Source: an uncultured bacterium
GTDB taxonomy: Bacteria; Patescibacteriota; Minisyncoccia; Phycocordibacterales; GWA1-40-21
Reading direction: 5' to 3'
Assembly: GCA_963716205.1 (NCBI GenBank)
Contig: OY970290.1
Span: 108,906-172,905 of the forward strand
Length of the DNA: 64,000 bases
Shown here: positions 586-48,892 of the stretch, piece after piece
Numbering within the stretch: the first letter of the stretch is position 1
Layout: the number at the start of each line of letters is the position of its first letter
Notes under the pieces: model-generated
What the model saw: the letters and a program-made list of their open reading frames with translations, nothing else
What the model was told of the DNA's origin: nothing
Databases searched by the model: none
Translations under genes and position numbers: made by a program

Positions 586-1281
586 ATGGATACCACAGAA
601 GTAAAAACAAATACTAAAGCTTCGATTGCACCGATTCAAACAGGTGCTGCTGAACCCGCAAAAAATACCGTTGCCGATACTAGAAAACCTTTTGCAAGAA
701 AGGGATTGGAAGGCGATAGGGTTAAAAATTATCGAAGAAACTCCGGACCGAGAGTGGAGCGCGTGAAGCCGGAATTCGATCAGAAAATTCTCAATATCAG
801 AAGAGTCACCCGAGTGACCAAAGGCGGAAAGCGGATGAACTTCAGTATTTGCATGGTTGTCGGAAACAGAAAGGGATCCGTCGGTGTCGGCACGGGCAAA
901 GCCAATGACACATCGGCTGCCATCGATAAGGCATATCGAAACGCCAAGAAAAATGCGATCCAACTGAATCTGACAAAAACCATGTCTATTCCTCACGATG
1001 TTTCCGCGAAATATTCAAGCGGCAGAGTGATCATCATGCCGGCGCCGGGACGCGGAGTTTCCGCCGGAAGTGCCGTCAAAAATGTCATTGAGCTTGCCGG
1101 CATCAACGATGTCAGCGCAAAAATCATTTCTCCTTCAAAAAATAAATTGAATATTTCCCGCGCAGCCGTCCTCGCGCTTTCAGTTTTTGATAAAAGAAAA
1201 TTTGCCGGAGAACAAAAAGCAAAAGATGCCGAAATCAAAAAAGAGGGTGAAAATAAAAAAGAAGAGAAAGCTGAAAAATAA
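586..1281 (+). CDS. rpsE: 30S ribosomal protein S5 with a Lys/Glu-rich C-terminal extension
   Basis: Core motifs RVTRVTKGGKRMNFSICMVVGNRKGSVGVGTGKA and GRVIIMPAPGRGVSAG are S5 hallmarks. The C-terminal tail (KKEGENKKEEKAEK) is lineage-specific. Confidence 0.85.
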   Translation: MDTTEVKTNTKASIAPIQTGAAEPAKNTVADTRKPFARKGLEGDRVKNYRRNSGPRVERVKPEFDQKILNIRRVTRVTKGGKRMNFSICMVVGNRKGSVGVGTGKANDTSAAIDKAYRNAKKNAIQLNLTKTMSIPHDVSAKYSSGRVIIMPAPGRGVSAGSAVKNVIELAGINDVSAKIISPSKNKLNISRAAVLALSVFDKRKFAGEQKAKDAEIKKEGENKKEEKAEK

Positions 1282-1285
1282 ATTT

Positions 1286-1726
1286 ATGAAAATACACGAA
1301 CTCAAAAGAAAAACAAAGAACAAGAAATTTCCGCTCATCGGTCGCGGAGGAAAAAGAGGCAAAACATCCGGTCGCGGAGGAAAAGGGCAGACTGCCCGCG
1401 CGGGACACAAAGCGCGACCGGAGATGCGCGATACGATCAAAAGAATGCCAAAGCTTCGCGGTCACGGCAAAAACAGCAATCTTTCATATCAGAAAAAGCC
1501 GTTCGTCGTCAATGTCGGCGATCTTGAAAAAATTTTTGCAACTGGTGCAAAAATCACGCCGCAAACGCTTGTCAAAAAGAACGTGGTAAAAATGGAAGCG
1601 GGAAAAAATCCCGTCATTAAAATCCTTGCACTCGGTGACATTACAAAGAAATTCATCGTTGAACAATGTGCTGTTTCAGTAGAAGCAAAAGCAAAAATAG
1701 AGAAAGCTGGAGGTTCTGTAAAATAA
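1286..1726 (+). CDS. rplO: 50S ribosomal protein L15
   Basis: The track ORF starts at 1187 and overlaps rpsE. The ATG at 1286 gives MKIHELKRKTKNKKFPLIGRGGKRGKTSGRGGKGQTARAGHK..., a typical L15 N-terminus. It follows rpsE after 4 nt, with no L30 gene between them. Confidence 0.8.
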   Translation: MKIHELKRKTKNKKFPLIGRGGKRGKTSGRGGKGQTARAGHKARPEMRDTIKRMPKLRGHGKNSNLSYQKKPFVVNVGDLEKIFATGAKITPQTLVKKNVVKMEAGKNPVIKILALGDITKKFIVEQCAVSVEAKAKIEKAGGSVK

Positions 1727-1736
1727 TTTCATTTAT

Positions 1737-3008
1737 ATGAATTTTTGGAGCAAAACGAAATTAATTTGGGAAGACAAAGGTCTGAGGAACAGATTGCTTT
1801 TCCTTGCATTTGCTCTTGTCATCTCGCGATTGCTCGCGACGATTCCGATTCCGGGAATCGATGCGGCGAAGCTCAATGAATTCTTTTCCGGAAGCGAATT
1901 TTTCAGCTTCTTGAATATTTTTTCCGGCGGCGGTATGTCTCGGCTTTCCATCGTCATGCTCGGTGTCAGCCCTTATATTACTGCATCGGTCGCGATGCAG
2001 CTTTTGACGATGATTTCTGGAAAATTAAAATCAATGTATCAGGAAGAAGGCGAAGCAGGCAGAAGCAAATTCAACCAGATTTCGAGAGTTATCACGGTGC
2101 CGATTGCCTTGATCCAGGCATTCGGATTTTTGGCTTTGCTCGCGAGTTCTGGAATCATTTCCAATCTGACCCACACTCAGCTTATCGTCAATGTCATTGT
2201 CATTACCGCGGGCTCGATGCTTTTCATGTGGATCGGTGAATTAATGACGGAATTCGGCATCGGGAACGGTGTCTCACTTCTTATTTTTGCCGGAATTGTC
2301 GCTACTTTGCCGAATACCATCACCCAATTGAGTTTGATTTTTAATGTGTCGCAGATACCGATGTATATTTTGTTCGCGGCATTTTCACTTCTCGTCATTT
2401 ACGGCGTCGTATATATTTCGGAAGCTGAAAGACCGGTGCCGGTCACTTATGCGAAAACAATCCGCGGCTCAAAAGTTTCTGGAGGAATTTCCACCTATCT
2501 TCCGCTGCGGGTCAATCAGGCCGGAGTCATGCCCATTATTTTCGGCATGTCCATACTTCTTTTTCCGCAGATGATATTCAAATACGTGGCGCAGCTTGTG
2601 ACGAATCCGACGATAAAATCAGTTTCCTCCACGCTCAATAATTGGATTTCCAATCCATGGATTTATGCGGCGCTGTATTTTGTTCTCGTTTTTCTTTTCA
2701 CGTATTTTTACACTGCGGTCACTTTTGATCCGGATCAAATATCCAAAAATCTCCAGCAATCTGGAGCGTTCGTTCCGGGAGTCAGGCCGGGGGAAGCAAC
2801 ATCAGAATATTTGGGTAAAGTCCTGACACGAATCACTTTGCTTGGGGCAAGTTTTCTTGCAATTGTCGCGGTATTGCCGCTTGCCGTGAGATCAATCACC
2901 GGCATTACATCGCTTGCCGTCGGCGGCACAGCTCTTCTTATCGTTGTTTCAGTCGTCATTGATTTGATCAAGAAAATTGATGCGCAGATCACGATGCGGG
3001 AATATTAG
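1737..3008 (+). CDS. secY: preprotein translocase subunit SecY
   Basis: 423-aa polytopic membrane protein in the SecY family. It is at the canonical position after rplO. Confidence 0.9.
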   Translation: MNFWSKTKLIWEDKGLRNRLLFLAFALVISRLLATIPIPGIDAAKLNEFFSGSEFFSFLNIFSGGGMSRLSIVMLGVSPYITASVAMQLLTMISGKLKSMYQEEGEAGRSKFNQISRVITVPIALIQAFGFLALLASSGIISNLTHTQLIVNVIVITAGSMLFMWIGELMTEFGIGNGVSLLIFAGIVATLPNTITQLSLIFNVSQIPMYILFAAFSLLVIYGVVYISEAERPVPVTYAKTIRGSKVSGGISTYLPLRVNQAGVMPIIFGMSILLFPQMIFKYVAQLVTNPTIKSVSSTLNNWISNPWIYAALYFVLVFLFTYFYTAVTFDPDQISKNLQQSGAFVPGVRPGEATSEYLGKVLTRITLLGASFLAIVAVLPLAVRSITGITSLAVGGTALLIVVSVVIDLIKKIDAQITMREY

Positions 3009-3077
3009 AAAACACAAAAAGAGCACAAAATTTTGTGCTCTTTTTGTGTTTTAGGCGATTTTTGCTATACTCATTTT

Positions 3078-3707
3078 ATGATTACGATATTAAAAAAAGA
3101 AGATGCAATATATAAAAACATGCCGCCGATGGCATATGTTTTCATGGGAAGATCCGGCTCCGGCAAGGGCACGCAGGTCCAATTGCTCAAAGACGAATTT
3201 ACGAAAAAAAAAGTTAAATTTCTCCACATTGAAACCGGAGCACTTCTGCGCGAATATGCAAAAGGAGATTCGTATGTGCAGCGCATCGTCAGAAATTTGA
3301 TACAGTCGGGAGAGCTTGCGCCGGACCCAGTCATTATCGGATTGTGGATCAATTATATTGTCAGAAATTTTACCGGAAAAGAGCAGCTGATTTTTGACGG
3401 CGCACCGAGAAAACTCATCGAGGCAGTTTTTCTCGACAGCACGATGAGATTTTTAAACATACATAAATATCAGGTTCTCTATATCGATGTGTCCCGCGAA
3501 ACATGCATCAAACGCCTTACCTCGCGAAGCAGGAGCGATGATGTTGCAAGCGCGATAGAAAACCGCATGAATTGGTTTGACCGAGATGTTATGCCGGCTT
3601 TGGAATTTTTCAGAACCAACAAAGACTGCATTGTTACCGGCATCAATGGTGAACAGAAGCCCGAGGCGATTCATCAGGAAATCATGATAAAGATCCATCT
3701 GTTATAA
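3078..3707 (+). CDS. adk: adenylate kinase-like nucleoside monophosphate kinase
   Basis: P-loop GRSGSGKGTQ followed by an NMP-kinase-like fold, at the canonical position after secY. The track ORF starts at 3033. ATG 3078 lies about 8 nt after a TGcTATACT box, so the start is uncertain. Confidence 0.65.
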   Translation: MITILKKEDAIYKNMPPMAYVFMGRSGSGKGTQVQLLKDEFTKKKVKFLHIETGALLREYAKGDSYVQRIVRNLIQSGELAPDPVIIGLWINYIVRNFTGKEQLIFDGAPRKLIEAVFLDSTMRFLNIHKYQVLYIDVSRETCIKRLTSRSRSDDVASAIENRMNWFDRDVMPALEFFRTNKDCIVTGINGEQKPEAIHQEIMIKIHLL

Positions 3708-4478
3708 ATGGTTACTATAAAAACAAAAGAAGAAATAGCGATCTTACGCGAGGGAGGAAAGCGCCTGGCATTCATATTGGTTGAATTGAAAAATGCGGTG
3801 AAGCCGGGAGTTTCGACAAGTGATTTAAATTTGCTTGCGGATAAACTTGCAAAAGAAAAAGGAGACACGGCATCGCTTCTTGGCTATCGGCCGAAAGGCG
3901 CGAAGCGTCCGTATCCGGCATCCGTCTGCGTTTCTCTCAACGATGAAGTGGTGCATGGAATTCCGAATGAAAATCCGAAAATTCTCAAAGAGGGCGACAT
4001 TATTTCTTTTGACATGTGCCTGACCCATAAAGGGCTCATCACCGACTCTGCGATTACGGTGCCGGTCGGAAAAATTGATGCGTCCGCGAAAAAATTGATT
4101 GCCGTTACGGAAGAATCTTTATATGCCGGCATCAAATCAGCAAAAGGCGAGAAACATATCGGTGATATCGGTTTTGGTGTTGAGCGGGTGGCGAAAGCAA
4201 ATGGTTTCTCAATCGTTGAAGATCTCTGCGGCCACGGTGTCGGATACAAAGTCCACGAAGATCCGTATATTCCGAATTATGGCAGCAAAAGCAGCGGCGA
4301 AAAATTAAAACCGGGAATGGTTTTGGCAATAGAGCCAATGCTTACCGCGGGCGCAAAAAATGTCTATCTGGATAAAGACGGCTATACCTACAAAACCGTG
4401 GATGGATCGCTCAGTGCGCATTTCGAGCATACGATTGTCATTACGAATGGCGAGCCGGAAATTTTGACGAAACTGTAA
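3708..4478 (+). CDS. map: type I methionine aminopeptidase
   Basis: 256 aa with metal-binding motifs (FDMCLTHKG..D, CGHGVG, AIEPML, EHTIVIT). Canonical position after adk. Confidence 0.9.
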   Translation: MVTIKTKEEIAILREGGKRLAFILVELKNAVKPGVSTSDLNLLADKLAKEKGDTASLLGYRPKGAKRPYPASVCVSLNDEVVHGIPNENPKILKEGDIISFDMCLTHKGLITDSAITVPVGKIDASAKKLIAVTEESLYAGIKSAKGEKHIGDIGFGVERVAKANGFSIVEDLCGHGVGYKVHEDPYIPNYGSKSSGEKLKPGMVLAIEPMLTAGAKNVYLDKDGYTYKTVDGSLSAHFEHTIVITNGEPEILTKL

Positions 4479-4479: not shown

Positions 4480-5502
4480 TCAATTATTGTTCGTATTTTC
4501 GTAATTATATACCAATGCGGAAATATCTTTAATGATACTCGCAAGGTCGGCTTCGCTTGCATCAGGATATCCTTTCGTCATAACACAGATAGTATAAGGA
4601 TTTTCGGCATAAACAATTCCGCAGTCGTGAAGTTCTGTTGCAGTGACTGCGCCTGTCGCATCAGTATCGACTCGTTCGCCGTATTTGTGGGATACAACAA
4701 TATTTGAAGGGATGCCGGCAACGAGAGCGCTGGTGAATGTCGTATGGCTCATGAGCGACAAAGCCTGTTCAGAATCGGCATCAGTCAAATAAGTCGTGTT
4801 ATATAAAATTCTCAAAAATGTTGAATAGTTTTTTGCGGAGATCGTAAAATCCGGTACCTCACTCGGCACCTCAATATTGAGATCATGATAAATATCATTG
4901 AGAATTGTTTGATTGGAATTATCCAAAAGCAAAGTTTCGGCACCGTTGTCGGAGTTCTCAATCATGTTGGTAATCAAATCTTTGACACCGTACGTTTTAC
5001 CTACAATCATGTTTGAAGGAAGATTAAAATCAATTGCATTTGCTTGATCCGCTATTGTTTTTGTATACACAAAATTTTGATTTAAGATTGACGGATCGAG
5101 CTGATCTTGGCGATAATAGGCAATCATAATGAGTACTTTCATCATGCTTCCCGGATGATATTGCGCATCTGCATTGACTCCTGCCCAGCTGTTTCCTGAA
5201 AGACTTGAAATATACACGGATATACTTTGCGCTTTTTGATTATCATATTCATTTTGCACGTAGCCGGTGATTTTCTGCTCAAGTATTTTATCTTCAAGAT
5301 AATATTTCGCATTGCCGAAATCGTAGCGGAGGAATGGAAAAACAAATTGATAGTCAAAATTATTTTCCCTGACGGGTTTGATGTTTTCAATCAGATTTTC
5401 TGTGTGCGCATTGTCACGGACAGCGCTTATCCAAAAACCTGCGCCAAAAGCAACGGCAAAAATGATAACGGATAATAATATGATATGCACTCGGCTTTTC
5501 AT
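4480..5502 (-). CDS. membrane-anchored class A beta-lactamase-like serine hydrolase (penicillin-binding fold)
   Basis: N-terminal transmembrane helix. Class A motifs are present: S-x-x-K (GSMMKV), SDN (ENSDNGAETLL) and a KTG-like HKYG. Convergent with map, and the stop codons abut at 4478/4480. Confidence 0.6.
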   Translation of the reverse strand: MKSRVHIILLSVIIFAVAFGAGFWISAVRDNAHTENLIENIKPVRENNFDYQFVFPFLRYDFGNAKYYLEDKILEQKITGYVQNEYDNQKAQSISVYISSLSGNSWAGVNADAQYHPGSMMKVLIMIAYYRQDQLDPSILNQNFVYTKTIADQANAIDFNLPSNMIVGKTYGVKDLITNMIENSDNGAETLLLDNSNQTILNDIYHDLNIEVPSEVPDFTISAKNYSTFLRILYNTTYLTDADSEQALSLMSHTTFTSALVAGIPSNIVVSHKYGERVDTDATGAVTATELHDCGIVYAENPYTICVMTKGYPDASEADLASIIKDISALVYNYENTNNN

Positions 5503-5544: not shown

Positions 5545-8322
5545 ATGGCAGAGACTTTTATTCCCGAAAAATTGGAGCAAAAATTCAAAAACCCGCAGGA
5601 GGAGCTGGAATTTTTGCGCGCGCAGGTAATGCAACATGAAAAAGCGCTTGCAGAAAGAAATGAAACTCCGCTTCATGATGAAGTCATTCATCATGAGCTC
5701 GCTATTCATGCGGACAGGAAAAAAGACGATGTACTCGACAAGGATTATGTTCTGAAAAATCATGAAACGGAAGCGATTGTACTTGATTTGTCGCCGGAGG
5801 AGCATGATGCGAAAATTGCCGAACTTATTACGATTTTACAGGAGAAAGGCATTCTCAATACTCTTGCCGTCGTGGAAAAAATGAAAGATTCCCACGTGGA
5901 AGATGATTTTCAGCGATTTCTTGTCCAATACATCAAATCCGGTTTTTCTGTCGGAAAAAATGAAAAAGGTCCGGTCTGGCGCGCGCTTCACATGACCTTG
6001 TTTGAAGTTTCGCTTCCGGGAATTGCAAAAGACGACACGCAAAAAGGAAAGCATTTGAAGGAGCTTATTTCGAAAATGGAACAGTTTTATGCCGGCATGC
6101 TTTCCGTCGAATCAAATGATACCGACGGCGCGGGATATTTTTCGCTTGAGCTTGCGAGCGGAAATCATTCGAGCGAGATTATTTTTTATATCGCGGTGCC
6201 GGACGCAAAAAAATCGCTTTTTGAAAAACAGGCGCAGTCCATATTTCCCGATGTAAAAATCGTGGAGAAAAATGACGACTATAATATTTTCAATGAAGAA
6301 GGCGACTATGTCGGCTCGCAGGTGGAATTTCAGACGAATGATATTTTTCCGATAAAAACATACGGCGAATATGACTATGATCCGCTCAATGTTATTTTGA
6401 ACAGTTTTTCCAAAGTCGATAAAGACGGCGAGGGCGCTGCGATACAGATTATTGTTAAGCCAGCCAAATCGAAAACAATGAGTTTCTACAAGCGCGTGCT
6501 GAAAGAAATGGAAAAAGGTGACAAATTCAAAGATGCGCTCGAAAAAGCGGACTCATCGCTTTTCACGGTTTTGAAAGGAGTGGGAAAGGAACTCGTCAGT
6601 TCCGGTTCAAAAAAAGACGACAAAAAAACCGACAACACAGCTTCCAACCAAATGCCGATTGAACAAATCAAAAACAAAATCGCAAGCCCGCTTGTCAATA
6701 TCAATATCCGCATCATGGCGAGCGCGGTGACAAGGGAAGAAGCTGCAGCAATTCTTTCCGACATTGAATCTGCGTTCAATCAGTTTGAAAATACCAACGG
6801 CAACAAATTTATTTTTGATCGCATTGAAGGCAAAAATCTCCTGAACATGACACGCGATTTTTCATTTAGGATTTTCAGCGAAAAGAGCGCACTCTCGCTT
6901 AATCTCAAAGAATTGACCACTGTGATGCACTTGCCGGAAGTTGATTTTGCAAATACATCAGCGCTCAAACAATCCGTGGCAAATACCGCGCCGGCACCGC
7001 TTGATCTGCCGCAAAAAGGAATTCTGCTCGGAGTGAACAAATACCGCAACATCGAAACTCCAATTCATATAACTCCCGAAGATCGCTTGCGGCATTTCTA
7101 TATCATCGGTCAGACCGGCACCGGTAAGACGACGCTTTTGAAGACGATGATCCGCCAGGATATTTTAGCCGGTGAAGGCGTCTGCATGATCGATCCGCAC
7201 GGAAGCGATATCCAAGAAGTGCTTTCATTCATCCCGCCGGAGCGATATAAAGATGTGATTTATTTTGATCCGAGCTATACCGAGCGACCGATGGGACTCA
7301 ACATGCTCGAATATGACAGAAGATTTCCGGAACAAAAAACATTCGTGGTGAATGAAATGCTTTCCATTTTCAATAAATTATTCGATATGAAAACCGCCGG
7401 CGGTCCGATGTTCGAGCAGTATTTCCGAAATGCCGTCATGCTGGTAATCGAAGATCCGGAAACCGGTTCGACACTTCTTGATGTTTCCCGCGTGCTTTCT
7501 GACAAGGTGTATCGCGAATTGAAATTGTCCAAATGTAAAAATCCGATTGTCATTCAATTTTGGCGCGAGATTGCGGGCAAAGCCGGCGGGGAAGCGTCAC
7601 TTGCAAATATTGTGCCATATATCACGAGCAAGTTTGATGTTTTTCTTTCCAATGAAATCATGCGGCCGATTGTTTCCCAGGAAAAGTCCGCGTTTGATTT
7701 CCGCGATATCATGGACAATAAAAAAATTCTTCTCGTCAATTTGGCAAAAGGAAGGCTTGGCGATATCAATTCCAATCTCATCGGCCTTATTATTGTTGGC
7801 AAGATTTTGATGGCGGCGCTTTCACGCACGGATTCATTTGGAGAAAACTTTCCACCGTTTTATCTCTATATTGATGAATTCCAAAATGTCACAACGGATT
7901 CAATCTCGACGATCTTATCCGAAGCGAGAAAATATAAACTCGCCCTTACCGTGGCGCACCAGTTCATTGCTCAGCTGGATGAAAAGATAAAAAATTCCGT
8001 TTTCGGAAATGTCGGCTCGATGGCGGTGTTCCGTGTCAGCTCGGAGGATTCGGAATATTTGGTCAAACAATTCGCGCCGGTATTTACCGCAAATGATCTG
8101 ATGAATATCGATAATCACAATTCGTATGTGAAGCTTCTTGCAAACGGCAGGCCGGCAAAGCCATTCTCTATGGAGACCAATTTGCCTCCGCGCGGCAACA
8201 AACTGTTGCTTGAAAAAATAAAAGAAATTTCGTATCTTGCGTATGGCAGAGACAGGGCAGAAGTTGAGGAAGAAATATTGGCAAAATATAAAAAGCCGGA
8301 GCCGGCAATGCCGAAAATATAA
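5545..8322 (+). CDS. FtsK/HerA/TraD-superfamily P-loop ATPase with an unknown N-terminal domain of about 500 aa
   Basis: Walker A IIGQTGTGKTTLL followed by IDPHGS (HerA/TrwB-like), Walker B YLYIDEFQ, then ARKYKLALTVAHQF. Paralogous to the ORF at 46978..48750. A TATAAT box lies about 11 nt before the ATG. Confidence 0.6.
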   Translation: MAETFIPEKLEQKFKNPQEELEFLRAQVMQHEKALAERNETPLHDEVIHHELAIHADRKKDDVLDKDYVLKNHETEAIVLDLSPEEHDAKIAELITILQEKGILNTLAVVEKMKDSHVEDDFQRFLVQYIKSGFSVGKNEKGPVWRALHMTLFEVSLPGIAKDDTQKGKHLKELISKMEQFYAGMLSVESNDTDGAGYFSLELASGNHSSEIIFYIAVPDAKKSLFEKQAQSIFPDVKIVEKNDDYNIFNEEGDYVGSQVEFQTNDIFPIKTYGEYDYDPLNVILNSFSKVDKDGEGAAIQIIVKPAKSKTMSFYKRVLKEMEKGDKFKDALEKADSSLFTVLKGVGKELVSSGSKKDDKKTDNTASNQMPIEQIKNKIASPLVNINIRIMASAVTREEAAAILSDIESAFNQFENTNGNKFIFDRIEGKNLLNMTRDFSFRIFSEKSALSLNLKELTTVMHLPEVDFANTSALKQSVANTAPAPLDLPQKGILLGVNKYRNIETPIHITPEDRLRHFYIIGQTGTGKTTLLKTMIRQDILAGEGVCMIDPHGSDIQEVLSFIPPERYKDVIYFDPSYTERPMGLNMLEYDRRFPEQKTFVVNEMLSIFNKLFDMKTAGGPMFEQYFRNAVMLVIEDPETGSTLLDVSRVLSDKVYRELKLSKCKNPIVIQFWREIAGKAGGEASLANIVPYITSKFDVFLSNEIMRPIVSQEKSAFDFRDIMDNKKILLVNLAKGRLGDINSNLIGLIIVGKILMAALSRTDSFGENFPPFYLYIDEFQNVTTDSISTILSEARKYKLALTVAHQFIAQLDEKIKNSVFGNVGSMAVFRVSSEDSEYLVKQFAPVFTANDLMNIDNHNSYVKLLANGRPAKPFSMETNLPPRGNKLLLEKIKEISYLAYGRDRAEVEEEILAKYKKPEPAMPKI

Positions 8323-8343: not shown

Positions 8344-8916
8344 ATGAAAAACGAACGAACATTTGTGATGGTGAAGCCCGATGGAGTACAGAGATCTTTG
8401 ATAGGGGAGATTATTGGAAGATTTGAGAGGGTTGGATTAAAGCTGGTGGCGATGAAAATGATTTTGCCGAGCGCAGAGCTCGTAGAAAAGCATTACACAC
8501 TTGATCCCAATTGGTTCAAGACAAATGGAGAAAAGACGCTTGCCGGTTATATCAAAAAAGGAATCACTCCACCATCGCATGATCCGATTGTTCTCGCACA
8601 AGCAACATTAAGACGTCTTGCACTCTATATGTCGAGCGGTCCCGTGGTAGCTATGGTTTGGCAAGGGGCGCATGCTGTTGGTATTGTCAGAAAATTAATT
8701 GGAGGAACTGAACCTCTTACTTCAGACGTGGGAACAGTGCGAGGAGATTTTGTTTTGGATTCATACCAGCTTGCTGATACGGATGACCGAGCAGTGAGAA
8801 ACCTTGTTCATGCATCCGGCTCACCAAAAGAAGCAGAGGATGAAATCAATCTCTGGCTGACAAAAAAAGATCTGATTGACTATCGATTGGTCCAGGAAGC
8901 GATCTTGTACGAATAA
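8344..8916 (+). CDS. ndk: nucleoside diphosphate kinase
   Basis: FVMVKPDGVQRSLIGEIIGRFERVGLKLVAMK is the NDK N-terminal signature. An active-site His region (NLVHASGS) is present. Confidence 0.8.
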   Translation: MKNERTFVMVKPDGVQRSLIGEIIGRFERVGLKLVAMKMILPSAELVEKHYTLDPNWFKTNGEKTLAGYIKKGITPPSHDPIVLAQATLRRLALYMSSGPVVAMVWQGAHAVGIVRKLIGGTEPLTSDVGTVRGDFVLDSYQLADTDDRAVRNLVHASGSPKEAEDEINLWLTKKDLIDYRLVQEAILYE

Positions 8917-10232: not shown

Positions 10233-13645
<3,413 letters not shown>

Positions 13646-13747
13646 AATTTAAAAAGTCACGTTCGCATGTTTTAACCTGTTATGTGAAATGAATTCAAAA
13701 AATATTTTTTTGAGTGATTTTCACAGTAGTTTGAGTTGAATTTTTTG

Positions 13748-13858
13748 TTCTGGTGCTTTGTCGCGGGTGTTACACCTGATCTCATTCCGAACTCAGCAGT
13801 TAAGCCCCGTTGAGGCGATGATACTCTCTCTGAAGGGGAAAGTAGCTAGGCGCCGGAA
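13748..13858 (+). rRNA. rrf: 5S ribosomal RNA
   Basis: CCTGATCTCATTCCGAACTCAGCAGTTAAGCCCCGTTGAGGCGATGATACTC matches the conserved 5S helix II-III/loop C region. It lies about 100 nt after the 23S 3' end. Confidence 0.8.
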
Positions 13859-14708: not shown

Positions 14709-15872
14709 ATGCTGCCGGAAAAAAGAAACACTCCTCGGTCCGGATTTTTTTCAATGTTTTCCGATGTCAATGTCGACTGGATCATGCTCGGTTCTGTCCT
14801 TGTCATTTCTTTTTTCGGCCTCTTGACGATGACATCATTTAACGGAGACAATACTTATATTGTCAAACAAATTTTGTGGATTTTGATTTCCGTATTCGTT
14901 TTTTTCTATTTGAGCACTCTTGATTATGGCTTTTTGAAAAAAACCAAAGTGGTCACCTGGATTTTTGTCATTTCGATTATTTTACTGGTGACACTTTTTG
15001 CCGTCGGTCATATCGCGAAAGGTGCGGAGAAATGGTTTGCCATCGGCGGGCTTTCATTTCAACCGTCCGATCCCATCAAGCTCGGTCTCATTATTATTCT
15101 GGCGAAATATTTTTCCCGGCGACATGTGGAAATCGCAAATATCCGGCATATTCTGGTGTCGGGTTTTTATGCACTTGTCATTTGCGCATTGATTTTCTTG
15201 CAGCCGGATTTCGGAAGCGCGCTTATCGTATTTTTTATCTGGCTCGGAATGATTTTGGTTTCCGGTGTTTCCAAAAAACATTTGTTTGCCGTATTTTTCC
15301 TCGGACTCACGGCTTTTTCCGTATTGTGGTTTTACGGATTGAGGGATTATCAAAAACAGCGCATTATTAATTTTGTCCATCCGCTTTCTGATATCCAAGG
15401 GTCCGGATACAATGCGTATCAAGCGACGATCGCCATCGGTTCCGGCGAGCTGCTCGGCAAGGGAATCGGCTACGGCACTCAATCGCGCCTGAAATTTTTG
15501 CCGGAATATCGCACTGATTTTATTTTTGCTGCTTTCGCCGAAGAATGGGGGCTTGTCGGCGTCGGAATCTTATTTTTATTTTTCGGCATTTTGATATGGA
15601 GAATATTGAGGAATGCGTATTACGGAGCGACAAATTTTGAAATTCTTTTCGGACTCGGTCTTGCAATCATGTTTATGAGTCATTTCATCGTAAATGTCGG
15701 AATGTGCCTCGGACTTATGCCGGTAACGGGAATTAATTTTCCTTTTATGAGCTACGGCGGGACCAATCTTCTCGCCTCATTTACCGGTCTCGGAATACTT
15801 ATGGGAATGAGCAGATACCGACGAAGTGCGCATAAAGAAGCGACAGAAAAAGAATTTTTAGGACTCGAATAA
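14709..15872 (+). CDS. SEDS-family peptidoglycan glycosyltransferase (RodA/FtsW)
   Basis: 387-aa polytopic membrane protein with an FtsW/RodA/SpoVE-family core (PDFGSALIVFFIWLGMI..., GYGTQSRLKFLPEYRTDFIFAAFAEEWG). The true start may lie downstream of 14709. Confidence 0.8.
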   Translation: MLPEKRNTPRSGFFSMFSDVNVDWIMLGSVLVISFFGLLTMTSFNGDNTYIVKQILWILISVFVFFYLSTLDYGFLKKTKVVTWIFVISIILLVTLFAVGHIAKGAEKWFAIGGLSFQPSDPIKLGLIIILAKYFSRRHVEIANIRHILVSGFYALVICALIFLQPDFGSALIVFFIWLGMILVSGVSKKHLFAVFFLGLTAFSVLWFYGLRDYQKQRIINFVHPLSDIQGSGYNAYQATIAIGSGELLGKGIGYGTQSRLKFLPEYRTDFIFAAFAEEWGLVGVGILFLFFGILIWRILRNAYYGATNFEILFGLGLAIMFMSHFIVNVGMCLGLMPVTGINFPFMSYGGTNLLASFTGLGILMGMSRYRRSAHKEATEKEFLGLE

Positions 15873-21122: not shown

Positions 21123-21178
21123 TTGATAATCTGATTTTTCTGTTCTATAATACATGTGAGTATTGCCAAGATTTTCAC

Positions 21179-26731: not shown

Positions 26732-26739
26732 TTATTTTT

Positions 26740-28530
26740 TTGAATATGCGCATTACATTTTATAAATATTATTTTCTTTTTTTACTCTTCTTTTTTTTCA
26801 TTCCCGCAATTTCTTTTGCCAATACCGGTACAATCGGAAGCACAACAAATGCTGCATGGAGCAATGAAATCGGCTGGATAAATTTTGCGCCAACAAACGG
26901 GGGAGTAGTTGTGAACGATTCATCTTTGACTGGTTCGGCATGGTCTCAAGATTACGGCTGGATTAATTTTGCCCCGACGAACGGCGGCGTGACAAATGAC
27001 GGACAAGGGAATCTCGGAGGAACCGCATGGGGGGATAATGTTGGATGGATTAGTTTTTCTGGAGTGACAATCAATACGACAACAGGAAAATTTTCAGGAC
27101 AGGCTACGGGCACAATTATTGGAACACTGACATTTGATTGTACCAATTGCGATGTTGCAACTGATTGGAGACCGACAACGGTTACTCCACCACCGTCATC
27201 TGGTGGAGGCGGAGGTGGAGGCGGAGCGCCGGGAGCTGGCGGAACAGGTGGCGGCAGTTCTCCATCTCCGACACCTACCCCTTCTCCAACCCCAACACCT
27301 TCTCCAACTCCATCTCCGACACCTACCCCTGAACCTACACCAACCCCAACTCCTGTTCCATCTCCAACACCCTCGCCAACCCCATCCCCCACACCAACAC
27401 CAACGCCAACCCCAACTTCCGGACCAAGTATAACTTCTGTTATTAGCGGATCAATTTCATCCGTCGGTTCATTTATTACTTCAGCCGCAAATGGATTCAT
27501 TACCAATTTAAATACTATTTATAACAACGCTCCGGCCTCGATAAAAAATACCGTTACTGTTACGAAACAATTTGTCCAGACAAAAACCGGTTCAGCTATA
27601 ACAAAAACAATTTCAACAATCGGTGTTGTGACGGGCATTTCACTTCCCGTTGCTGTTGCAGCAACTTCATTTTCAGATTTATGGCTTATTTTTGTAAGAA
27701 TGTTCGGATTATTCTTTGAAATATTTGGTATTCGCAAAAAATCCCGTCCATGGGGCACGGTATATGATTCCATCACCAAGCGTCCGCTTGACCCCGTTCT
27801 TGTCACTCTCATCAATGTTGAAACAGATAAGCAGATCACTTCAGCCATTACGGATATCGATGGGCGATACGGATTTCTCGTTTCTCCCGGCACATATCGG
27901 ATTGAAGCCAGGAAAACCGATTACACATCTCCATCGCTCAAGATGAAAGGCAGATCATTTGATGAAGTCTATAATGATCTGTATTTTGGAGAAAATATAA
28001 CTGTTGTAAATGAGGAAGAAACAATTACCAAAAATATTCCTATGGATTCAATATCGTTCAACTGGAATGAATTTGCCAAGACAAAAATGGATGTGAATAA
28101 ATTTATTAAAGGCAGAGACATTACCTGGGCCCGCATTTCCAAATTCCTTTTTGTCATCGGAGCTCTCGTTGCACTCATTGCCGTTCTCATTGTTCCAGAA
28201 CCGTATAATTTTATTATCGCCGGATTCTACATTCTCGCATATATATTGAACTATGTGGTATTTACGACGAAGAAAGCCGGCACTCTGATAGAAAAATCCA
28301 CCAATTTGCCCCTCTCATTTGCCATTATCAATATTTTTCGAGAAGGTGAAACGGCTCCGTTCACTAAGAAAATCGCTGACAAGTTTGGCGATTATTACGC
28401 GCTGGTTCCCAAAGGCAGATATTATTTGAAAGTTGAAAAGAAAAATGACGATGAGACCTATACAGCTCTTTTCCAGACATCACTTTTTGATGTGAAAAAT
28501 GGAGTGATCAATGTCAATATTACGGGATAA
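26740..28530 (+). CDS. polytopic surface protein: signal peptide, three Trp-rich repeats, a Pro/Thr/Ser linker, transmembrane segments and a carboxypeptidase-regulatory-like beta-sandwich
   Basis: Repeats [36 protein letters not shown] and [30 protein letters not shown] linker. Several hydrophobic helices. The segment [57 protein letters not shown] resembles CarboxypepD_reg. Confidence 0.6.
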
Positions 28531-29026: not shown

Positions 29027-29060
29027 GAATATTTTGTTACATTGATATGCCCGTATTCTA

Positions 29061-45985: not shown

Positions 45986-46663
45986 ATGAAAAAATTCTAT
46001 GTCATTGGAACACCGATAGGGAACTTGGAAGATATCACGTATCGCGCAGTGCGAGTTTTTGGTGAAGTCGATCTGATCCTTTGCGAAGATACCCGAGTGA
46101 CGGCAAATCTTTTAAATAAATACAGCATCAAAAAGCCGACCATGAGCTATCATTCGCAAAGCAAGATTGCAAAACTTGAAAAAATAATCGAAATAATTGC
46201 CAATGGAAAAACACTCGCACTTGTTTCTGATGCCGGCACACCAACGATTTCTGATCCGGGCTCAATGCTTGTTTCAAAAATTCGGGAAAATTTTCCCGAC
46301 GTTGAAATCATTGTAATTCCGGGACCGAGCGCGCTGACCTCGGCACTTTCAATTTCTGGACTTCCGGGATCGGAATTTCTTTTCTTAGGATTTTTGCCGC
46401 ACAAAAAGGGAAGGGAAACGCTGTTCAAAGAAATTGCCGCGTCAGAACGAACGGTGGTGTTTTATGAATCTCCGCACCGAATATTGAAATCTCTCGAATT
46501 TTTGAAAAAATATGTCGTAGATCGAAAAGTTGTCATTGCACGGGAACTTTCCAAAATATATGAGCAGATTATTTCCGGCACGCCGACCGAAATTGAGAAC
46601 TATTTCAAAGACAATGCGGACAAAGTCAGGGGAGAATTTGTCGTCATGGTCAGCGCAAAATAG
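45986..46663 (+). CDS. rsmI: 16S rRNA (cytidine1402-2'-O)-methyltransferase RsmI (tetrapyrrole-methylase fold)
   Basis: MKKFYVIGTPIGNLEDITYRAVRVFGEVDLILCEDTRVTANLL...VSDAGTPTISDPG is the characteristic RsmI N-terminal region. Confidence 0.8.
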   Translation: MKKFYVIGTPIGNLEDITYRAVRVFGEVDLILCEDTRVTANLLNKYSIKKPTMSYHSQSKIAKLEKIIEIIANGKTLALVSDAGTPTISDPGSMLVSKIRENFPDVEIIVIPGPSALTSALSISGLPGSEFLFLGFLPHKKGRETLFKEIAASERTVVFYESPHRILKSLEFLKKYVVDRKVVIARELSKIYEQIISGTPTEIENYFKDNADKVRGEFVVMVSAK

Positions 46664-46700: not shown

Positions 46701-46937
46701 ATGATAAAAATTTCAACGATTTTCGGGCTTGGTATACTGGTGATATTTACCCAATTTTTAGGATTGCCGATCGGCTGGAAAGATTTTATTTATATTTTTT
46801 CCGGGCTTTGCATCACTGTTTTATCAATGCTCATACGGCGGGAACTGCTTGATGTTCTCAAACAAATGCACACTGGACCTGTAAATACTGAAACATTTTC
46901 AGAGAGCAAGCCGCAACAAAACCAGCCTGAACAATAA
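46701..46937 (+). CDS. small membrane protein (78 aa, two transmembrane helices)
   Basis: ORF with two hydrophobic helices, followed by the terminator AAAACTCCCGCAAGGAGTTTTTT (46936..46958). Confidence 0.4.
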   Translation: MIKISTIFGLGILVIFTQFLGLPIGWKDFIYIFSGLCITVLSMLIRRELLDVLKQMHTGPVNTETFSESKPQQNQPEQ

Positions 46938-46977: not shown

Positions 46978-48750
46978 ATGGATCCCGAAAGAATCACATA
47001 TTTTGGCGAGACTGATTCGCGCAATAAGCGGGTAAAATTTGGCATTAAAGCCAAAGACAGGACCAAGCATATCTATGTCATAGGAAAGACCGGCATGGGA
47101 AAATCCACCGTTCTTGAAAATATGGCCATTCAGGATCTTCAAAATGGCGAAGGAATGGCATTTATCGATCCGCACGGCAACACTGCTGACAAACTCTTGA
47201 ATTATGTTTCCGCGGAAAGAATACATGACGTCGTGTATTTTGCTCCGTTTGATACCGATTATCCAATTTCATTCAATGTCATGGAAGATGTCGGTCCGGA
47301 CAAGCGGCATCTCGTCGTTTCGGGTTTGATGAGTGCGTTCAAGAAACTTTTCGGCGAGGAAAGCTTTTCCGATCGTATGCAGTATATTTTGCAAAATACC
47401 ATTCTTGCGCTTCTGGAATATCCGGGAGCGACGATGCTCGGCATCAACAAAATGTTGACAGACAAAGTGTACCGAAACAAAGTTATTGCCAATGTTACCG
47501 ATATGTCGGTCAAGGCGTATTGGACGCAGGAATATGCAAATTACACTGAACGTTTTGCTCAGGAAGCGATACCGGCAATTCAAAACAAAATCGGACAGTT
47601 CACTTCAAATCCTCTTATCCGTAATATCATCGGTCAGCCGAAATCGAGTTTTGATTTCAGGAAAATCATGGATGACGGCAAAATCATGATTATTAATCTT
47701 TCCAAAGGCAGAGTCGGCGAATCAAATGCCAATCTGCTCGGCTCGATGCTCATCACCAAAATTTATCTTGCGGCGATGTCCCGTGCCGACATATCGGAAA
47801 AAATATTGAAAAATCTTCCGAATTTTTATCTGTATGTGGATGAATTCCAGTCGTTTGCCAATGAATCGTTTGCGGATATTCTTTCGGAAGCCAGAAAATA
47901 TAAACTCAATCTGACCGTGGCGCACCAATATATCGAGCAGATGGCGGAAGAAGTCCGTGCGGCGGTTTTCGGCAACGTCGGCACGATGATTACATTTCGC
48001 GTCGGCGCATACGATGCCGAAGTGCTTGAGAAAGAATTTGCGCCGCAGTTCACCGCGGAAGACTTGGTCAATCTTGGAATCTACCAGATGTATCTGAAGC
48101 TTATGATAAATGGCGTCAGCTCGTTTCCATTTTCAGCGACTGGACTCCCGCCATTTCCCGAGCCGGTTATCTCCTACAAAAAAGAGATTATTGAAAGTTC
48201 CCGGAAGCAATTTGCTGTGCCAAAAATCGAAGTTGAAGGCAATATCCAAAAATGGCATGACGAAAGCAAGCCCGCGCCGAAAATCACAATTCAGCCGAAG
48301 CCATCAATTATGGCAAAAGAGATTCCGAAAAATTTTGAAATAAAAACACCAGTGCCGCCGGCTATCGCAAAAGAAAAACCCGTTTTGAAAGAAATAAAAA
48401 AATCAGTTGAAGAAAATGCGCGTAAAACAATGCCGATTCGTCCGCCGATTGAAACGGAAGTCGGGGAAGATTTTCTGCCACTCAAAGATTTTGCCAAAAA
48501 ATCCGTTTCTCGCAGCCAGAATAAATCAATGAGCAATGAAAATCTTTCGGATTTGAGATATGCTCTCGCTGCGGCGATGAAACAGAAATCGTCAGAAGCA
48601 TCAAAGCCGGAAGAAAAACTAATTACCGAAAAATCTGAAACGGTAGTGAAAGAGAAATCAGAACAGAAAAAAGAAGAACCGAAACAGCCGCATGGACTGA
48701 AGGAAATTTCCGAGCATGATTTAAAAAATATTTTCGGTTCTGAAGAATAA
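46978..48750 (+). CDS. FtsK/HerA/TraD-superfamily P-loop ATPase (paralogue of 5545..8322) with a Lys/Glu-rich C-terminal tail
   Basis: Walker A VIGKTGMGKSTVL, then IDPHGN, YLYVDEFQ and ARKYKLNLTVAHQYIEQ, collinear with the ATPase half of the first paralogue. The track start at 46957 is TTG; ATG 46978 follows a GGTATAAT box by 10 nt. Confidence 0.6.
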   Translation: MDPERITYFGETDSRNKRVKFGIKAKDRTKHIYVIGKTGMGKSTVLENMAIQDLQNGEGMAFIDPHGNTADKLLNYVSAERIHDVVYFAPFDTDYPISFNVMEDVGPDKRHLVVSGLMSAFKKLFGEESFSDRMQYILQNTILALLEYPGATMLGINKMLTDKVYRNKVIANVTDMSVKAYWTQEYANYTERFAQEAIPAIQNKIGQFTSNPLIRNIIGQPKSSFDFRKIMDDGKIMIINLSKGRVGESNANLLGSMLITKIYLAAMSRADISEKILKNLPNFYLYVDEFQSFANESFADILSEARKYKLNLTVAHQYIEQMAEEVRAAVFGNVGTMITFRVGAYDAEVLEKEFAPQFTAEDLVNLGIYQMYLKLMINGVSSFPFSATGLPPFPEPVISYKKEIIESSRKQFAVPKIEVEGNIQKWHDESKPAPKITIQPKPSIMAKEIPKNFEIKTPVPPAIAKEKPVLKEIKKSVEENARKTMPIRPPIETEVGEDFLPLKDFAKKSVSRSQNKSMSNENLSDLRYALAAAMKQKSSEASKPEEKLITEKSETVVKEKSEQKKEEPKQPHGLKEISEHDLKNIFGSEE

Positions 48751-48754: not shown

Positions 48755-48892
48755 ATGTTGTTTTTTGCAACAATCATTTTTATTTTCTTGGCTTTGTTTG
48801 CCGCCATTTGGGCGAGAATGGAAGGCAGAAAAGAAAAAAAGCGCTTTGAAGAAGGTGGTCTTTCGGCGGAGGATTTTGAGATTACTGAATGA
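48755..48892 (+). CDS. small membrane protein (45 aa)
   Basis: MLFFATIIFIFLALFAAIWARMEGRKEKKRFEEGGLSAEDFEITE: one transmembrane helix. Not in the ORF track. Confidence 0.3.
   Translation: MLFFATIIFIFLALFAAIWARMEGRKEKKRFEEGGLSAEDFEITE

What the first reader, a model, noticed from the sequence alone, without database searches (positions are those of the whole stretch)
5545..8322. Paralogous FtsK/HerA/TraD-type ATPases outside any conjugative context
The two proteins (5545..8322 and 46978..48750) share Walker A G.TG.GK(T/S), the segment IDPHG, YLY(I/V)DEFQ and ARKYKL.LTVAHQ. The first carries an additional 500-aa N-terminal domain with no recognisable motifs and no transmembrane helices. The second has a Lys/Glu-rich tail and sits right next to the integrative element. 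Neither has T4SS partners (no VirB4/relaxase) in the window. Candidate roles are DNA uptake, DNA translocation, or a defence/maintenance function.
Basis: partly seen in the sequence, partly recalled or inferred. Interest (0 to 1): 0.55.

Follow-up and report, generated by a model that had tools for sequence, protein, structure and literature searches.

The report
Two core coupling-type ATPases in a CPR bacterium
Two related motor ATPases of the kind that normally feeds DNA into conjugation machines have become fixed, very slowly evolving chromosomal genes in an ultra-small (CPR/Paceibacteria) bacterium. One of them carries an N-terminal domain with the fold of the VirB4 secretion ATPase.

Summary
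ORF A (5545-8322, 925 aa) and ORF B (46978-48750, 590 aa) are paralogs: 41% identity over 444 aa, E 4e-104, with all the quoted motifs. Neither has a transmembrane helix, and no T4SS or relaxase gene lies in the window.

The interpretation needs revising.
- The genome is a Paceibacteria (Candidate Phyla Radiation) chromosome, and both genes are vertically inherited core genes, not orphans beside a mobile element.
- A sits in a conserved S5-secY-adk-map-A-ndk string.
- A's ATPase domain is more conserved than SecY or S5 in 30 of 31 genomes.
- B is an NTD-less sister clade. It lies in conserved synteny, so its closeness to the island is coincidental.

The nearest non-CPR relatives are DUF8128-type coupling ATPases. 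They are encoded next to Replic_Relax genes in Gram-positive, actinobacterial and archaeal conjugation modules, and in phage G.

A 2025 survey already counted about two VirD4-like genes per Patescibacteria genome, away from virB4. Published Tn-seq in a Saccharibacterium shows one of its two copies is essential.

The most likely role is soluble ring ATPases serving the CPR T4SS-like machine encoded elsewhere. A T4SS-independent housekeeping role is not excluded. I class this as a new variant of a known kind.

The parts
5545..8322 (+). ORF A, 925 aa: DUF8128 (VirB4-NTD-like) domain fused to a coupling-protein-type ATPase
   Evidence: Translation. Exact match P0001 plus more than 1,900 homologs, all ~925 aa and carrying PF26449, PF10412 and PF01935. 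Paralogous to B.
5545..5949 (+). A aa 1-135: helical N-terminal extension, absent from the shorter (~790-840 aa) family members
   Evidence: AF2 model shows helices 17-132. Representatives of 790-840 aa match only query residues ~140-490.
5962..6939 (+). A aa ~140-465: DUF8128 core, an alpha/beta domain with the VirB4/TrwK N-terminal-domain fold
7012..8184 (+). A aa ~490-880: P-loop ATPase domain with an all-helical insertion (aa ~597-710). Motif positions: Walker A 7108-7131, IDPHG 7189-7203, Walker B 7858-7884, ARKYKL..Q 7924-7962.
   Evidence: All motif residues are invariant in 65 orthologs.
8344..8916 (+). Nucleoside diphosphate kinase, the conserved downstream neighbour of A (21-nt gap)
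   Evidence: Pfam NDK. NDK lies downstream of A in 49 of 64 evaluable species-representative loci, within 600 bp in 38 of them.
586..4478 (+). S5, L15, SecY, Adk and Map: the end of the ribosomal-protein/spc gene string that precedes A in most relatives
   Evidence: Pfam. Map lies upstream on the same strand within 4 kb in 50 of 70 loci. See also loci L001, L002 and L004.
46978..48750 (+). ORF B, 590 aa: NTD-less paralog. ATPase core aa 1-430, with Walker A 47083-47106, Walker B 47824-47850 and ARKYKL..Q 47890-47928.
48265..48747 (+). B aa 430-590: variable Lys/Glu-rich tail with three short conserved islets (DFLPL, NLSDLRxAL, EIxExDL)
   Evidence: Composition and column conservation.
46701..46937 (+). 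78-aa two-TM-helix ORF immediately upstream of B; a candidate membrane partner
   Evidence: Sequence. Homologs lie upstream on the same strand in 33 of 75 metagenomic B loci. No Pfam hit.
48755..48892 (+). 45-aa single-TM ORF just after B's stop codon; conserved only in close relatives
   Evidence: 8 of 71 loci.
45986..46663 (+). RsmI-like TP_methylase, a syntenic upstream neighbour of B that separates it from the island
   Evidence: Pfam. Same order in L005 and L006.

Best explanation
A and B are two chromosomal, vertically inherited paralogs of the coupling-protein (VirD4/TraD/TrwB-like) branch of the FtsK-HerA P-loop ATPases. Both are fixed as core genes in Paceibacteria (CPR).

A keeps the ancestral architecture found on monoderm conjugative plasmids: a soluble N-terminal DUF8128 domain with the fold of the VirB4 N-terminal domain, followed by a T4CP-type ATPase with an all-helical insertion. 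B arose by duplication inside the CPR lineage. It lost the N-terminal domain and gained a Lys/Glu-rich tail with short conserved motifs.

Both have lost linkage to relaxase-like and T4SS genes. A is now embedded in the secY-adk-map-A-ndk string.

Inferred mechanism: each forms a cytoplasmic ring ATPase, because all catalytic motifs are intact. Lacking its own membrane anchor, each is recruited by protein contacts to the Patescibacteria-type T4SS-like machine encoded elsewhere (VirB4, TrsD, VirB3, VirB6, VirB8 and pilins, near oriC). A would dock through its VirB4-NTD-like domain. B would dock through its tail and/or the small membrane ORFs next to it. There they would use ATP to select and feed a polymer substrate, either unfolded protein or nucleic acid, in a non-conjugative process.

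Shown: paralogy, family, domain folds, synteny, conservation and plasmid relatives. Inferred: oligomer state, docking, substrate and the link to the T4SS.
For: Paralogy and motifs.

CPR genome context:
- 23S (with a ~400-nt insertion) and 5S are unlinked from 16S.
- Homolog names are Paceibacterota, Taylorbacteria, Wolfebacteria and Minisyncoccia.

Coupling-protein affinity:
- PF10412 and PF12696 score above the gathering thresholds.
- The best NCBIfam hits are TraD and VirD4-like families.
- The only PDB sequence hit is TrwB.
- hhalign of the B profile against pSK41 TraK (VirD4-like) spans 303 columns. Against the VirB4-like TraE it covers only the Walker A region.

VirB4-NTD fold of DUF8128.

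Plasmid and phage relatives covering both domains, placed in the T4CP slot beside Replic_Relax and apart from a separate AAA_10 VirB4.

The A and B clades are sisters, with the plasmid forms branching outside them.

Core-gene status:
- Synteny in 80 species representatives.
- A's ATPase has a median 79% identity, against 69% for SecY and 65.5% for S5. It is higher than both in 30 of 31 genomes.
- B's core is ~80% identical across Parcubacteria.
- No copies on IMG/VR viral contigs.

Literature:
- 5,713 VirD4-type homologs in 2,918 of 3,035 Patescibacteria genomes, only 148 of them near virB4. virB4 is present in 80% of assemblies (PMC12102498).
- In S. epibionticum, two such genes lie outside the essential T4SS cluster and both belong to core, Patescibacteria-enriched families. 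One, SEML1_0142, is essential (PMC10633639 Table S1).
Against: - No T4SS gene is linked to A or B in the window, in 80 A loci or in 75 B loci.
- I could not check whether this genome has virB4 at all.
- Canonical T4CPs have N-terminal TM helices. These proteins have none.
- Conservation higher than SecY is unusual for a secretion accessory. It fits a central housekeeping role at least as well.
- In S. epibionticum the second paralog (SEML1_0293) is dispensable although the T4SS is essential. Its orthology to A or B is unresolved.
- The neighbour-joining tree is crude.
Confidence: 0.45

Rival explanations
1. T4SS-independent exaptation. A and/or B are housekeeping translocases that act on nucleic acid or protein in a core CPR-specific process, without the VirB4 machine. 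Candidates are DNA/RNA import and nucleotide scavenging linked to Adk and NDK, or handing substrates to another envelope machine.
For: - A lies in the adk-map-A-ndk string and is probably co-transcribed with ndk: the gap is 21 nt and no terminator-like site separates them.
- A's ATPase domain is more conserved than SecY or S5.
- T4CP homologs are almost never near virB4, and the 2025 authors themselves raise exaptation.
- SEML1_0142 is essential from the first Tn-seq time point.
- The weak NCBIfam CedD 'DNA-translocating ATPase' hit.
Against: - Gene order inside a ribosomal super-operon mostly reflects co-expression, not shared pathway.
- The adk-map-A-ndk order is specific to Paceibacteria. 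In S. epibionticum, adk-map is followed by ftsA-ftsZ.
- Deleting ComEC does not affect viability in S. epibionticum, so DNA uptake through ComEC is not essential there.
- No partner for such a pathway was identified.
Confidence: 0.3
2. B, with the small membrane ORFs beside it, works with the adjacent envelope and polysaccharide genes (DUF4015-like hydrolase, GT4 glycosyltransferases, LTD protein). It would act as an energising ATPase for export or assembly of a surface polymer.
For: In 75 B loci:
- a DUF4015-like protein lies upstream on the same strand in 49;
- GT4 glycosyltransferases lie downstream in 44;
- the small two-TM protein lies upstream in 33.
In the window, a glycosyltransferase, methyltransferase and flippase cluster follows B.
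Against: - No known polysaccharide export system uses a T4CP-type ATPase.
- The glycosyltransferase clusters are low-GC and variable in content and strand, which suggests neighbourhood rather than an operon.
- In the window they are on the opposite strand to B.
Confidence: 0.08
3. The genes are remnants or cargo of a mobile element (ICE or prophage), or a HerA/MADS-like defence ATPase.
For: - B lies ~1.5 kb from a low-GC island that carries a serine recombinase at tRNA-Leu.
- PADLOC mad8 hits at E 1e-15 and 3e-17, plus weak HerA hits.
- phrog_5156 at E 1e-88.
- Homologs on plasmids and in phage G.
Against: - GC content at both genes is that of the core genome.
- Synteny is conserved across dozens of species that lack the island.
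- Identity is 65-90% across orders, with purifying selection stronger than on SecY.
- No nuclease, Sir2 or methylase partner is nearby.
- None on IMG/VR contigs.
- Plasmid and phage relatives are only 22-29% identical and branch outside the CPR clades.
Confidence: 0.03
4. They replace FtsK/SpoIIIE in chromosome segregation at division.
For: They belong to the same ATPase superfamily. ftsW is nearby (14709-15872). There is a weak FtsK_SpoIIIE Pfam hit.
Against: - The FtsK Pfam score is below its threshold (15.3 vs 24).
- A cultivated CPR bacterium has a canonical, essential FtsK with 4TM, alpha and gamma domains in addition to its two T4CP-like genes.
Confidence: 0.04

Closest known systems
Type IV coupling proteins (VirD4 / TrwB / TraD / DotL; Pfam PF10412, PF02534, PF12696)
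   Same: - P-loop ATPase with Walker A, Walker B (DE) and the R-K-x...Q motif, and an all-helical insertion between the Walker motifs.
- Best sequence and profile matches.
   Different: - No N-terminal TM anchor.
- No relaxase or T4SS neighbours.
- Chromosomal core genes with extreme conservation.
- Scores far below all NCBIfam equivalog cut-offs.
- A carries a VirB4-NTD-like domain that classical T4CPs lack.
DUF8128-type 'coupling' ATPases of monoderm and archaeal conjugation modules and of phage G. Examples: B. subtilis plasmid NZ_CP154917.1 WP_345805471.1, Embleya WP_331738717.1, C. botulinum pCBH AJD29139.1, phage G gp156; PHROG 5156.
   Same: - Same two-domain architecture, aligning over A aa ~200-914 in a single piece.
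- The Bacillus protein is likewise free of TM helices.
   Different: - Only 22-29% identical.
- Encoded immediately upstream of a Replic_Relax gene, within Tcp/Prg-type T4SS operons that have a separate AAA_10 VirB4.
- The CPR genes have neither neighbour.
VirB4 / TrwK (R388), PDB 7o42
   Different: - The ATPase domain does not match the VirB4 sequence families. There is no AAA_10 or CagE_TrbE_VirB hit, and TIGR00929 scores 22 bits against a cut-off of 643.
- It is not next to VirB3, VirB6 or VirB8.
- The canonical Paceibacteria virB4 lies near dnaA.
Patescibacteria 'T4CP homologues' of Quinonero-Coronel et al. 2025 (PMC12102498), and SEML1_0142 / SEML1_0293 of Southlakia epibionticum (Wang et al. 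2023)
   Same: - About two VirD4-like genes per genome, away from virB4 and without a relaxase.
- Both Saccharibacterial proteins have a ~380-400-aa N-terminal region ahead of the P-loop domain.
   Different: Those studies did not separate the two paralog families, describe the N-terminal domain, or report the synteny and conservation. Orthology of A and B to the two Saccharibacterial genes is untested.
HerA / DUF87 helicase-translocases (HerA-NurA, HerA-Sir2, DptH)
   Different: No HAS-barrel-type N-domain match and no nuclease or effector partner gene. The sequence hits cover mostly the Walker A segment.

Membership tests
Type IV coupling protein (VirD4/TrwB/TraD) | T4CP-type nucleotide-binding domain (Walker A/B, conserved R and Q) detectable with the family profiles | tested here: met
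   - PF10412 scores 29.6 (A) and 25.0 (B) bits against GA 20.5.
- PF12696 scores 24.1 and 22.4 bits against GA 22.
- hhalign against pSK41 TraK spans 303 columns, E 5.5e-4.
- The motifs are invariant in orthologs.
Type IV coupling protein (VirD4/TrwB/TraD) | All-alpha domain inserted in the NBD | tested here: inconclusive
Type IV coupling protein (VirD4/TrwB/TraD) | N-terminal transmembrane anchor | tested here: not met
   Hydropathy scans find no N-terminal TM segment in A or B.
Type IV coupling protein (VirD4/TrwB/TraD) | Genetic association with a relaxase and/or a VirB4-centred T4SS | tested here: not met
   No such Pfam family in the window, nor among the conserved neighbours in 80 A loci and 75 B loci. 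The rest of the genome was not examined.
Type IV coupling protein (VirD4/TrwB/TraD) | Reaches a curated equivalog or subfamily cut-off (NCBIfam TraD, VirD4-like) | tested here: not met
   Best scores are 55.8 bits against 366 (SXT_TraD) and 39.3 against 250 (CD1115 family).
VirB4 | VirB4 N-terminal domain fold | tested here: met
VirB4 | VirB4-type C-terminal ATPase (AAA_10 / CagE_TrbE_VirB / TIGR00929) | tested here: not met
   - No AAA_10 or CagE hit.
- TIGR00929 scores 22 bits against 643, at Walker A only.
- hhalign to pSK41 TraE covers 50 columns only.
- AAA_10 proteins branch outside the A and B clades in the tree.
VirB4 | Encoded with VirB3, VirB6 and VirB8 homologs | tested here: not met
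   None in the window or in the syntenic loci. The canonical Paceibacteria virB4 is reported near dnaA, dnaN and rnpA.
Pfam DUF8128 (PF26449) | Match to the family model in the N-terminal ~490 aa | tested here: met
   Precomputed Pfam annotation lists PF26449 for the exact sequence P0001 and for all 120 listed homologs. The model is missing from the local Pfam copy, so hmmscan did not list it. One ortholog carries the name 'DUF8128 domain-containing protein' in a source record.
HerA/FtsK translocases | FtsK_SpoIIIE or HerA profile above threshold, with family-specific accessory domains (FtsK 4TM/alpha/gamma; HerA HAS barrel) | tested here: not met
   - FtsK_SpoIIIE scores 15.3 and 13.2 bits against GA 24, and HerA_C 13.9 against 22. 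DUF87 is above GA, but in A it covers mainly the P-loop.
- The N-domain matches VirB4, not a HAS barrel.
Anti-phage defence ATPases (PADLOC: MADS mad8, HerA-type systems) | Strong match plus the system's partner genes nearby | tested here: not met
   mad8 scores only 56-61 bits and HerA 25-30 bits. The neighbours are housekeeping genes in conserved synteny.

The most novel reading that the evidence does not exclude
A and B are the motors of a CPR-specific, essential cytoplasmic translocation process that no longer depends on the VirB4 T4SS. One possibility is import or processing of host-derived nucleic acid for nucleotide supply, which would fit the adk-map-A-ndk string. Another is delivery of substrates to a different envelope machine. 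Under this reading, a conjugative coupling ATPase carrying a VirB4-type docking domain was domesticated into a housekeeping enzyme that evolves more slowly than SecY.
Probability: 0.25. Interest if true: 0.8.

Novelty: new variant of a known kind. Interest (0 to 1): 0.5.

Why it matters
CPR/Patescibacteria make up a large share of bacterial diversity, and they depend on host cells through poorly understood envelope machines. Their T4SS-like system is essential in the one species tested, yet it has been said to lack a coupling protein.

This analysis adds four points:
- The "orphan" VirD4-like genes form two distinct, ancient paralog families.
- One family carries a VirB4-type N-terminal domain, a plausible docking module.
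- In Paceibacteria both families are under stronger constraint than SecY.
- In the cultivated Saccharibacterium, published Tn-seq already marks one of its two copies as essential.

Together these give concrete, testable candidates for the missing energising or substrate-selecting component, or for a new housekeeping use of a conjugation ATPase.

The analysis also defines a soluble DUF8128-type coupling ATPase class. It is paired with Replic_Relax genes on Gram-positive, actinobacterial and archaeal plasmids and occurs in phage G.

Tried and rejected
- **Defence or mobile-element reading.** PADLOC gave only weak mad8 and HerA hits. A scan of IMG/VR viral contigs with the DUF8128 alignment found no relatives. 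The island has no informative direct repeats and is absent from relatives. Rejected.
- **DUF8128 as a TrsD homolog.** TrsD is the split VirB4 N-portion of pGO1/pSK41. hhalign against pSK41 TrsD found nothing (probability 0.06).
- **Small TM ORFs flanking B as universal partners.**
  - The downstream 45-aa ORF is conserved only in close relatives (8 of 71 loci).
  - The upstream two-TM ORF is found in 33 of 75 loci. That is suggestive but not universal.
  - Neither ORF has a Pfam hit.
- **Sequence search of the PDB.** With A and with a B-family profile, only the TrwB P-loop region came up.
- **Exact look-up of A's encoding contig.** Nothing was returned, and this genome is not a GTDB species representative. 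I therefore could not inspect the rest of the genome for virB4.
- **AFDB fold libraries.** Unavailable.
- **Promoter and terminator scans.** Not informative beyond the lack of a terminator between A and ndk.
Full report
**Observation**

Both ORFs are real. A runs 5545-8322 on the + strand and is 925 aa. B is best started at the ATG at 46978 (590 aa), because orthologs begin MDPE..TYFGETD.

BLASTP of A against B gives 41% identity over 444 residues, E 4e-104.

Hydropathy scans find no N-terminal transmembrane helix in either protein. B's last 160 residues are 32% Lys+Glu, against 14.5% in the core.

Pfam gives the predicted weak hits, just above the gathering thresholds: DUF87/HerA, TrwB_AAD_bind and TraG-D_C. 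NCBIfam hits are to TraD, VirD4-like and CedD models, far below their cut-offs.

I ran essentially every ORF in the window through Pfam. None is a VirB4, relaxase or other T4SS component.

**What the window is**

The window is a piece of a Candidate Phyla Radiation (Patescibacteria) chromosome.
- 23S rRNA, with about 400 extra nucleotides, and 5S lie at 10.3-13.9 kb. 16S is unlinked, at 34.4-35.9 kb.
- The gene content is ribosomal proteins, SecY, Adk, Map, NDK, FtsW, SecDF, SecA, a pilin-like gene, giant surface proteins and glycosyltransferase clusters.
- A is identical to a protein recorded on a 681,747-bp contig.
- Named homologs come from Paceibacterota, Taylorbacteria, Nomurabacteria, Wolfebacteria and Minisyncoccia.

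**A is a core gene in a housekeeping string**

More than 1,900 homologs were scored. The best 120 are all ~925 aa, 64-87% identical over their full length, and annotated PF26449 (DUF8128) plus the T4CP and DUF87 domains.

Three long contigs show the same gene order: ribosomal proteins, SecY, Adk, Map, zero to three variable genes, A, then NDK.

In 80 GTDB species-representative loci found with the N-terminal alignment:
- the DUF8128 domain is fused to the ATPase in 78 (the other two loci end inside the gene);
- Map lies upstream on the same strand within 4 kb in 50 of 70 evaluable loci;
- NDK lies downstream in 49 of 64, within 600 bp in 38 of them.

In the window a beta-lactamase-like gene on the opposite strand is inserted between map and A. 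The same insertion is seen in L009 and L020.

In 31 genomes where S5, SecY, Adk, Map, A and NDK are all present, the median identity to the window proteins is as follows:

| Protein | Median identity |
|---|---|
| A, ATPase domain | 79% |
| Map | 70% |
| SecY | 69% |
| S5 | 65.5% |
| NDK | 64% |
| A, N-terminal domain | 58.5% |
| Adk | 44% |

A's ATPase domain is more conserved than both SecY and S5 in 30 of the 31 genomes. No CPR-type A gene occurs on IMG/VR viral contigs.

**B is also a core gene, and its closeness to the island is coincidental**

All 8,000 scored candidates matched B. The ATPase core is about 80% identical across Parcubacteria lineages, while the tail varies in length.

A and B orthologs sit 25-26 kb apart on the same contigs.

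In close relatives the order is RsmI-like methylase, a small two-TM ORF, B, a small one-TM ORF, then glycosyltransferases. There is no island between 16S/tRNA and these genes.

The low-GC island at 36.9-45.4 kb carries a serine recombinase at tRNA-Leu. It is therefore an insertion next to, but not part of, B's conserved neighbourhood.

Across 75 metagenomic B loci the recurrent neighbours are:
- a DUF4015-like protein upstream, in 49;
- GT4 glycosyltransferases downstream, in 44;
- the small two-TM protein upstream, in 33.

The 45-aa downstream ORF is conserved only in close relatives.

**The N-terminal domain of A**

A search of 1.84 billion cluster representatives with residues 1-490 found 1,050 families at E<=1e-3. 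All full-length members are 790-1120 aa, so the domain is always fused to the ATPase. The first ~135 residues are an optional helical extension.

An AlphaFold2 model of residues 1-495 has mean pLDDT 76.8 and pTM 0.65. It was searched against the PDB in two ways.
- Foldseek independently ranked 14 TrwK chains first, with probability 1.0.

A profile comparison with TrsD of pSK41, the free-standing "VirB4 N-portion" protein, found nothing.

**Placing the ATPase domain**

At the sequence level the closest known families are coupling proteins.
- TrwB is the only PDB sequence hit.
- TraD and VirD4-like NCBIfam models score best.
- The B-family profile aligns with the VirD4-like TraK of pSK41 over 303 columns. 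With the VirB4-like TraE it aligns only around Walker A.

**Relatives outside CPR**

PHROG 5156 (function unknown) matches A residues 165-915 at E 1e-88.

tblastn finds phage G gp156 (24.5% identity over residues 176-896), which sits next to a "VirB-like" gp155. It also finds ATPase-domain homologs in SPO1-like Bacillus phages.

548 plasmids carry 22-26%-identical homologs that cover the DUF8128 core plus the ATPase. They include Bacillus, Streptomyces, Clostridium (among them C. botulinum toxin plasmids), haloarchaeal and Sulfolobus plasmids.

In three unrelated plasmids the homolog lies immediately upstream of a Replic_Relax (PF13814) gene. In two of the three it sits inside a Tcp/Prg-type conjugation operon with a separate AAA_10 VirB4:
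- Bacillus subtilis plasmid: TcpC, TcpE and an AAA_10 VirB4;
- Embleya plasmid: PrgI and a VirB4-like protein;
- C. botulinum pCBH: followed by Replic_Relax only.

In these elements the protein therefore occupies the coupling-protein slot. The Bacillus version also has no TM helix.

A neighbour-joining tree of ATPase domains makes the CPR A and B clades sisters. The plasmid and phage forms branch outside them, and the AAA_10 VirB4s lie further out. The simplest history is a CPR-internal duplication of an A-like ancestor, followed by loss of the N-terminal domain in B. The tree is crude and should be redone with likelihood methods.

**What is already published**

Quinonero-Coronel et al. 2025 (PMC12102498) report the following:
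- 5,713 VirD4-type T4CP homologs in 2,918 of 3,035 Patescibacteria genomes, only 148 of them near virB4;
- virB4 in 80% of assemblies, near dnaA, dnaN and rnpA in Paceibacteria;
- almost no relaxases;
- a note that the Southlakia epibionticum homolog is non-essential and may have been exapted.

Wang et al. 2023 (PMC10633639) state that the essential T4SS cluster lacks a recognisable coupling protein. Their supplementary tables nevertheless list two T4CP-like genes outside that cluster, both flagged as core and Patescibacteria-enriched families:
- SEML1_0142 (1019 aa, P-loop at 381-800) is called essential at all three time points.
- SEML1_0293 (921 aa, PF10412 at 402-719) is non-essential.

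The same organism has a canonical essential FtsK.

So the existence of about two orphan T4CP-like genes per CPR genome is known. The following were not described in the papers I could read:
- the split into two paralog families;
- the VirB4-NTD-like nature of DUF8128;
- the lack of a TM anchor;
- the secY-adk-map-A-ndk synteny;
- conservation exceeding that of SecY;
- the link to Replic_Relax-associated plasmid ATPases;
- the essentiality of one Saccharibacterial copy.

**Mechanism**

Shown: intact catalytic motifs, domain folds, conservation and genomic context.

Inferred: A and B form ring ATPases that have no membrane anchor of their own and are recruited by protein contacts.

In VirB4, as reported for the R388 structures, the N-terminal domain contacts VirB3 and VirB8 at the inner-membrane complex. 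This is from my own knowledge and was not checked here. A domain of the same fold on A is therefore a plausible docking module for the Patescibacteria T4SS-like machine. B's conserved tail motifs, and the small membrane ORF beside it, could do the same job.

I rate this T4SS-coupled reading at about 0.45. A T4SS-independent housekeeping exaptation gets about 0.3. It is favoured by the extreme conservation, the operon context and the near-complete absence of linkage to virB4. Envelope-polymer export for B (0.08), a mobile or defence origin (0.03) and FtsK replacement (0.04) are less likely, for the reasons given under the rival explanations.

**Verdict**

The feature is a real and biologically interesting variant of a known kind: domesticated, soluble, coupling-type ATPases, one of which has a VirB4-like N-domain. 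It is of moderate interest because the broad phenomenon is published, and because it yields sharp, testable hypotheses in organisms that are now genetically tractable.

Noticed in passing
window 10296-13858 and 34388-35907: The rRNA genes are unlinked. 23S (3,351 nt against a 2,925-nt model, so a ~400-nt insertion) and 5S lie 21 kb upstream of 16S on the same strand. In relative L001, a LAGLIDADG ORF lies in the region downstream of ndk where no other gene was called.
   Followed up: partly
window 36886-45400: A low-GC (31-33%) island. It begins with a large serine recombinase (36886-38580, minus strand) whose 3' end overlaps tRNA-Leu (36853-36935). The rest is ORFs with no Pfam hit. The island is absent at the corresponding place in relative L005, and no long direct repeats were found.
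   Followed up: partly
window 41194-41318: A LOOT RNA motif (Rfam RF03000, 88 bits, E 2e-15) lies inside the island and overlaps the start of ORF 41261-41836.
   Followed up: no
window 15912-28530: Two tandem giant ORFs (1736 and 1850 aa) carry LVIVD/beta-propeller repeats, Gly_rich_2 and a Peptidase_S74 (endosialidase-chaperone, tail-fibre-like) domain. A 596-aa ORF with only a weak repeat-protein (PARP) Pfam match follows. These are probably surface or adhesion proteins.
   Followed up: no
window 4480-5502 (minus strand): A beta-lactamase-family (Beta-lactamase2, PF13354) gene is inserted on the opposite strand between map and A. The same insertion is present in L009 and L020 but not in most relatives.
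   Followed up: partly
L001 8571-9986: In a related genome, a bAvd gene and a reverse transcriptase (RVT_1) gene lie directly upstream of the A ortholog. This pairing suggests a diversity-generating retroelement, which was not examined further.
   Followed up: no
window 8344-8916: The NDK downstream of A is 190 aa (198 aa in relatives). The Pfam match is split into two stretches, which suggests an insertion or extension.
   Followed up: no
L170 (Bacillus phage G) 4249-8391; also phages CP-51, JL, Shanette, PBC5: Phage G encodes a VirB-like protein (gp155) next to a DUF8128-type ATPase (gp156). SPO1-like and other Bacillus phages carry ATPase-domain homologs annotated as 'lipid A export ATP-binding/permease MsbA', an annotation this similarity does not support.
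   Followed up: partly
PMC10633639 Table S1 versus PMC12102498 text: The 2025 survey says the S. epibionticum t4cp homolog is non-essential. The 2023 Tn-seq table lists a second T4CP-like gene, SEML1_0142, as essential at all time points. Its upstream neighbour SEML1_0141 (139 aa, hypothetical) is called growth-deficient at the first time point and essential at the next two.
   Followed up: partly
window 28544-29092 (minus strand): A type IV pilin-like gene with an N_methyl prepilin motif lies next to glycosyltransferase and sugar-transferase genes. A similar pilin-like gene is found at the corresponding position in L001.
   Followed up: no
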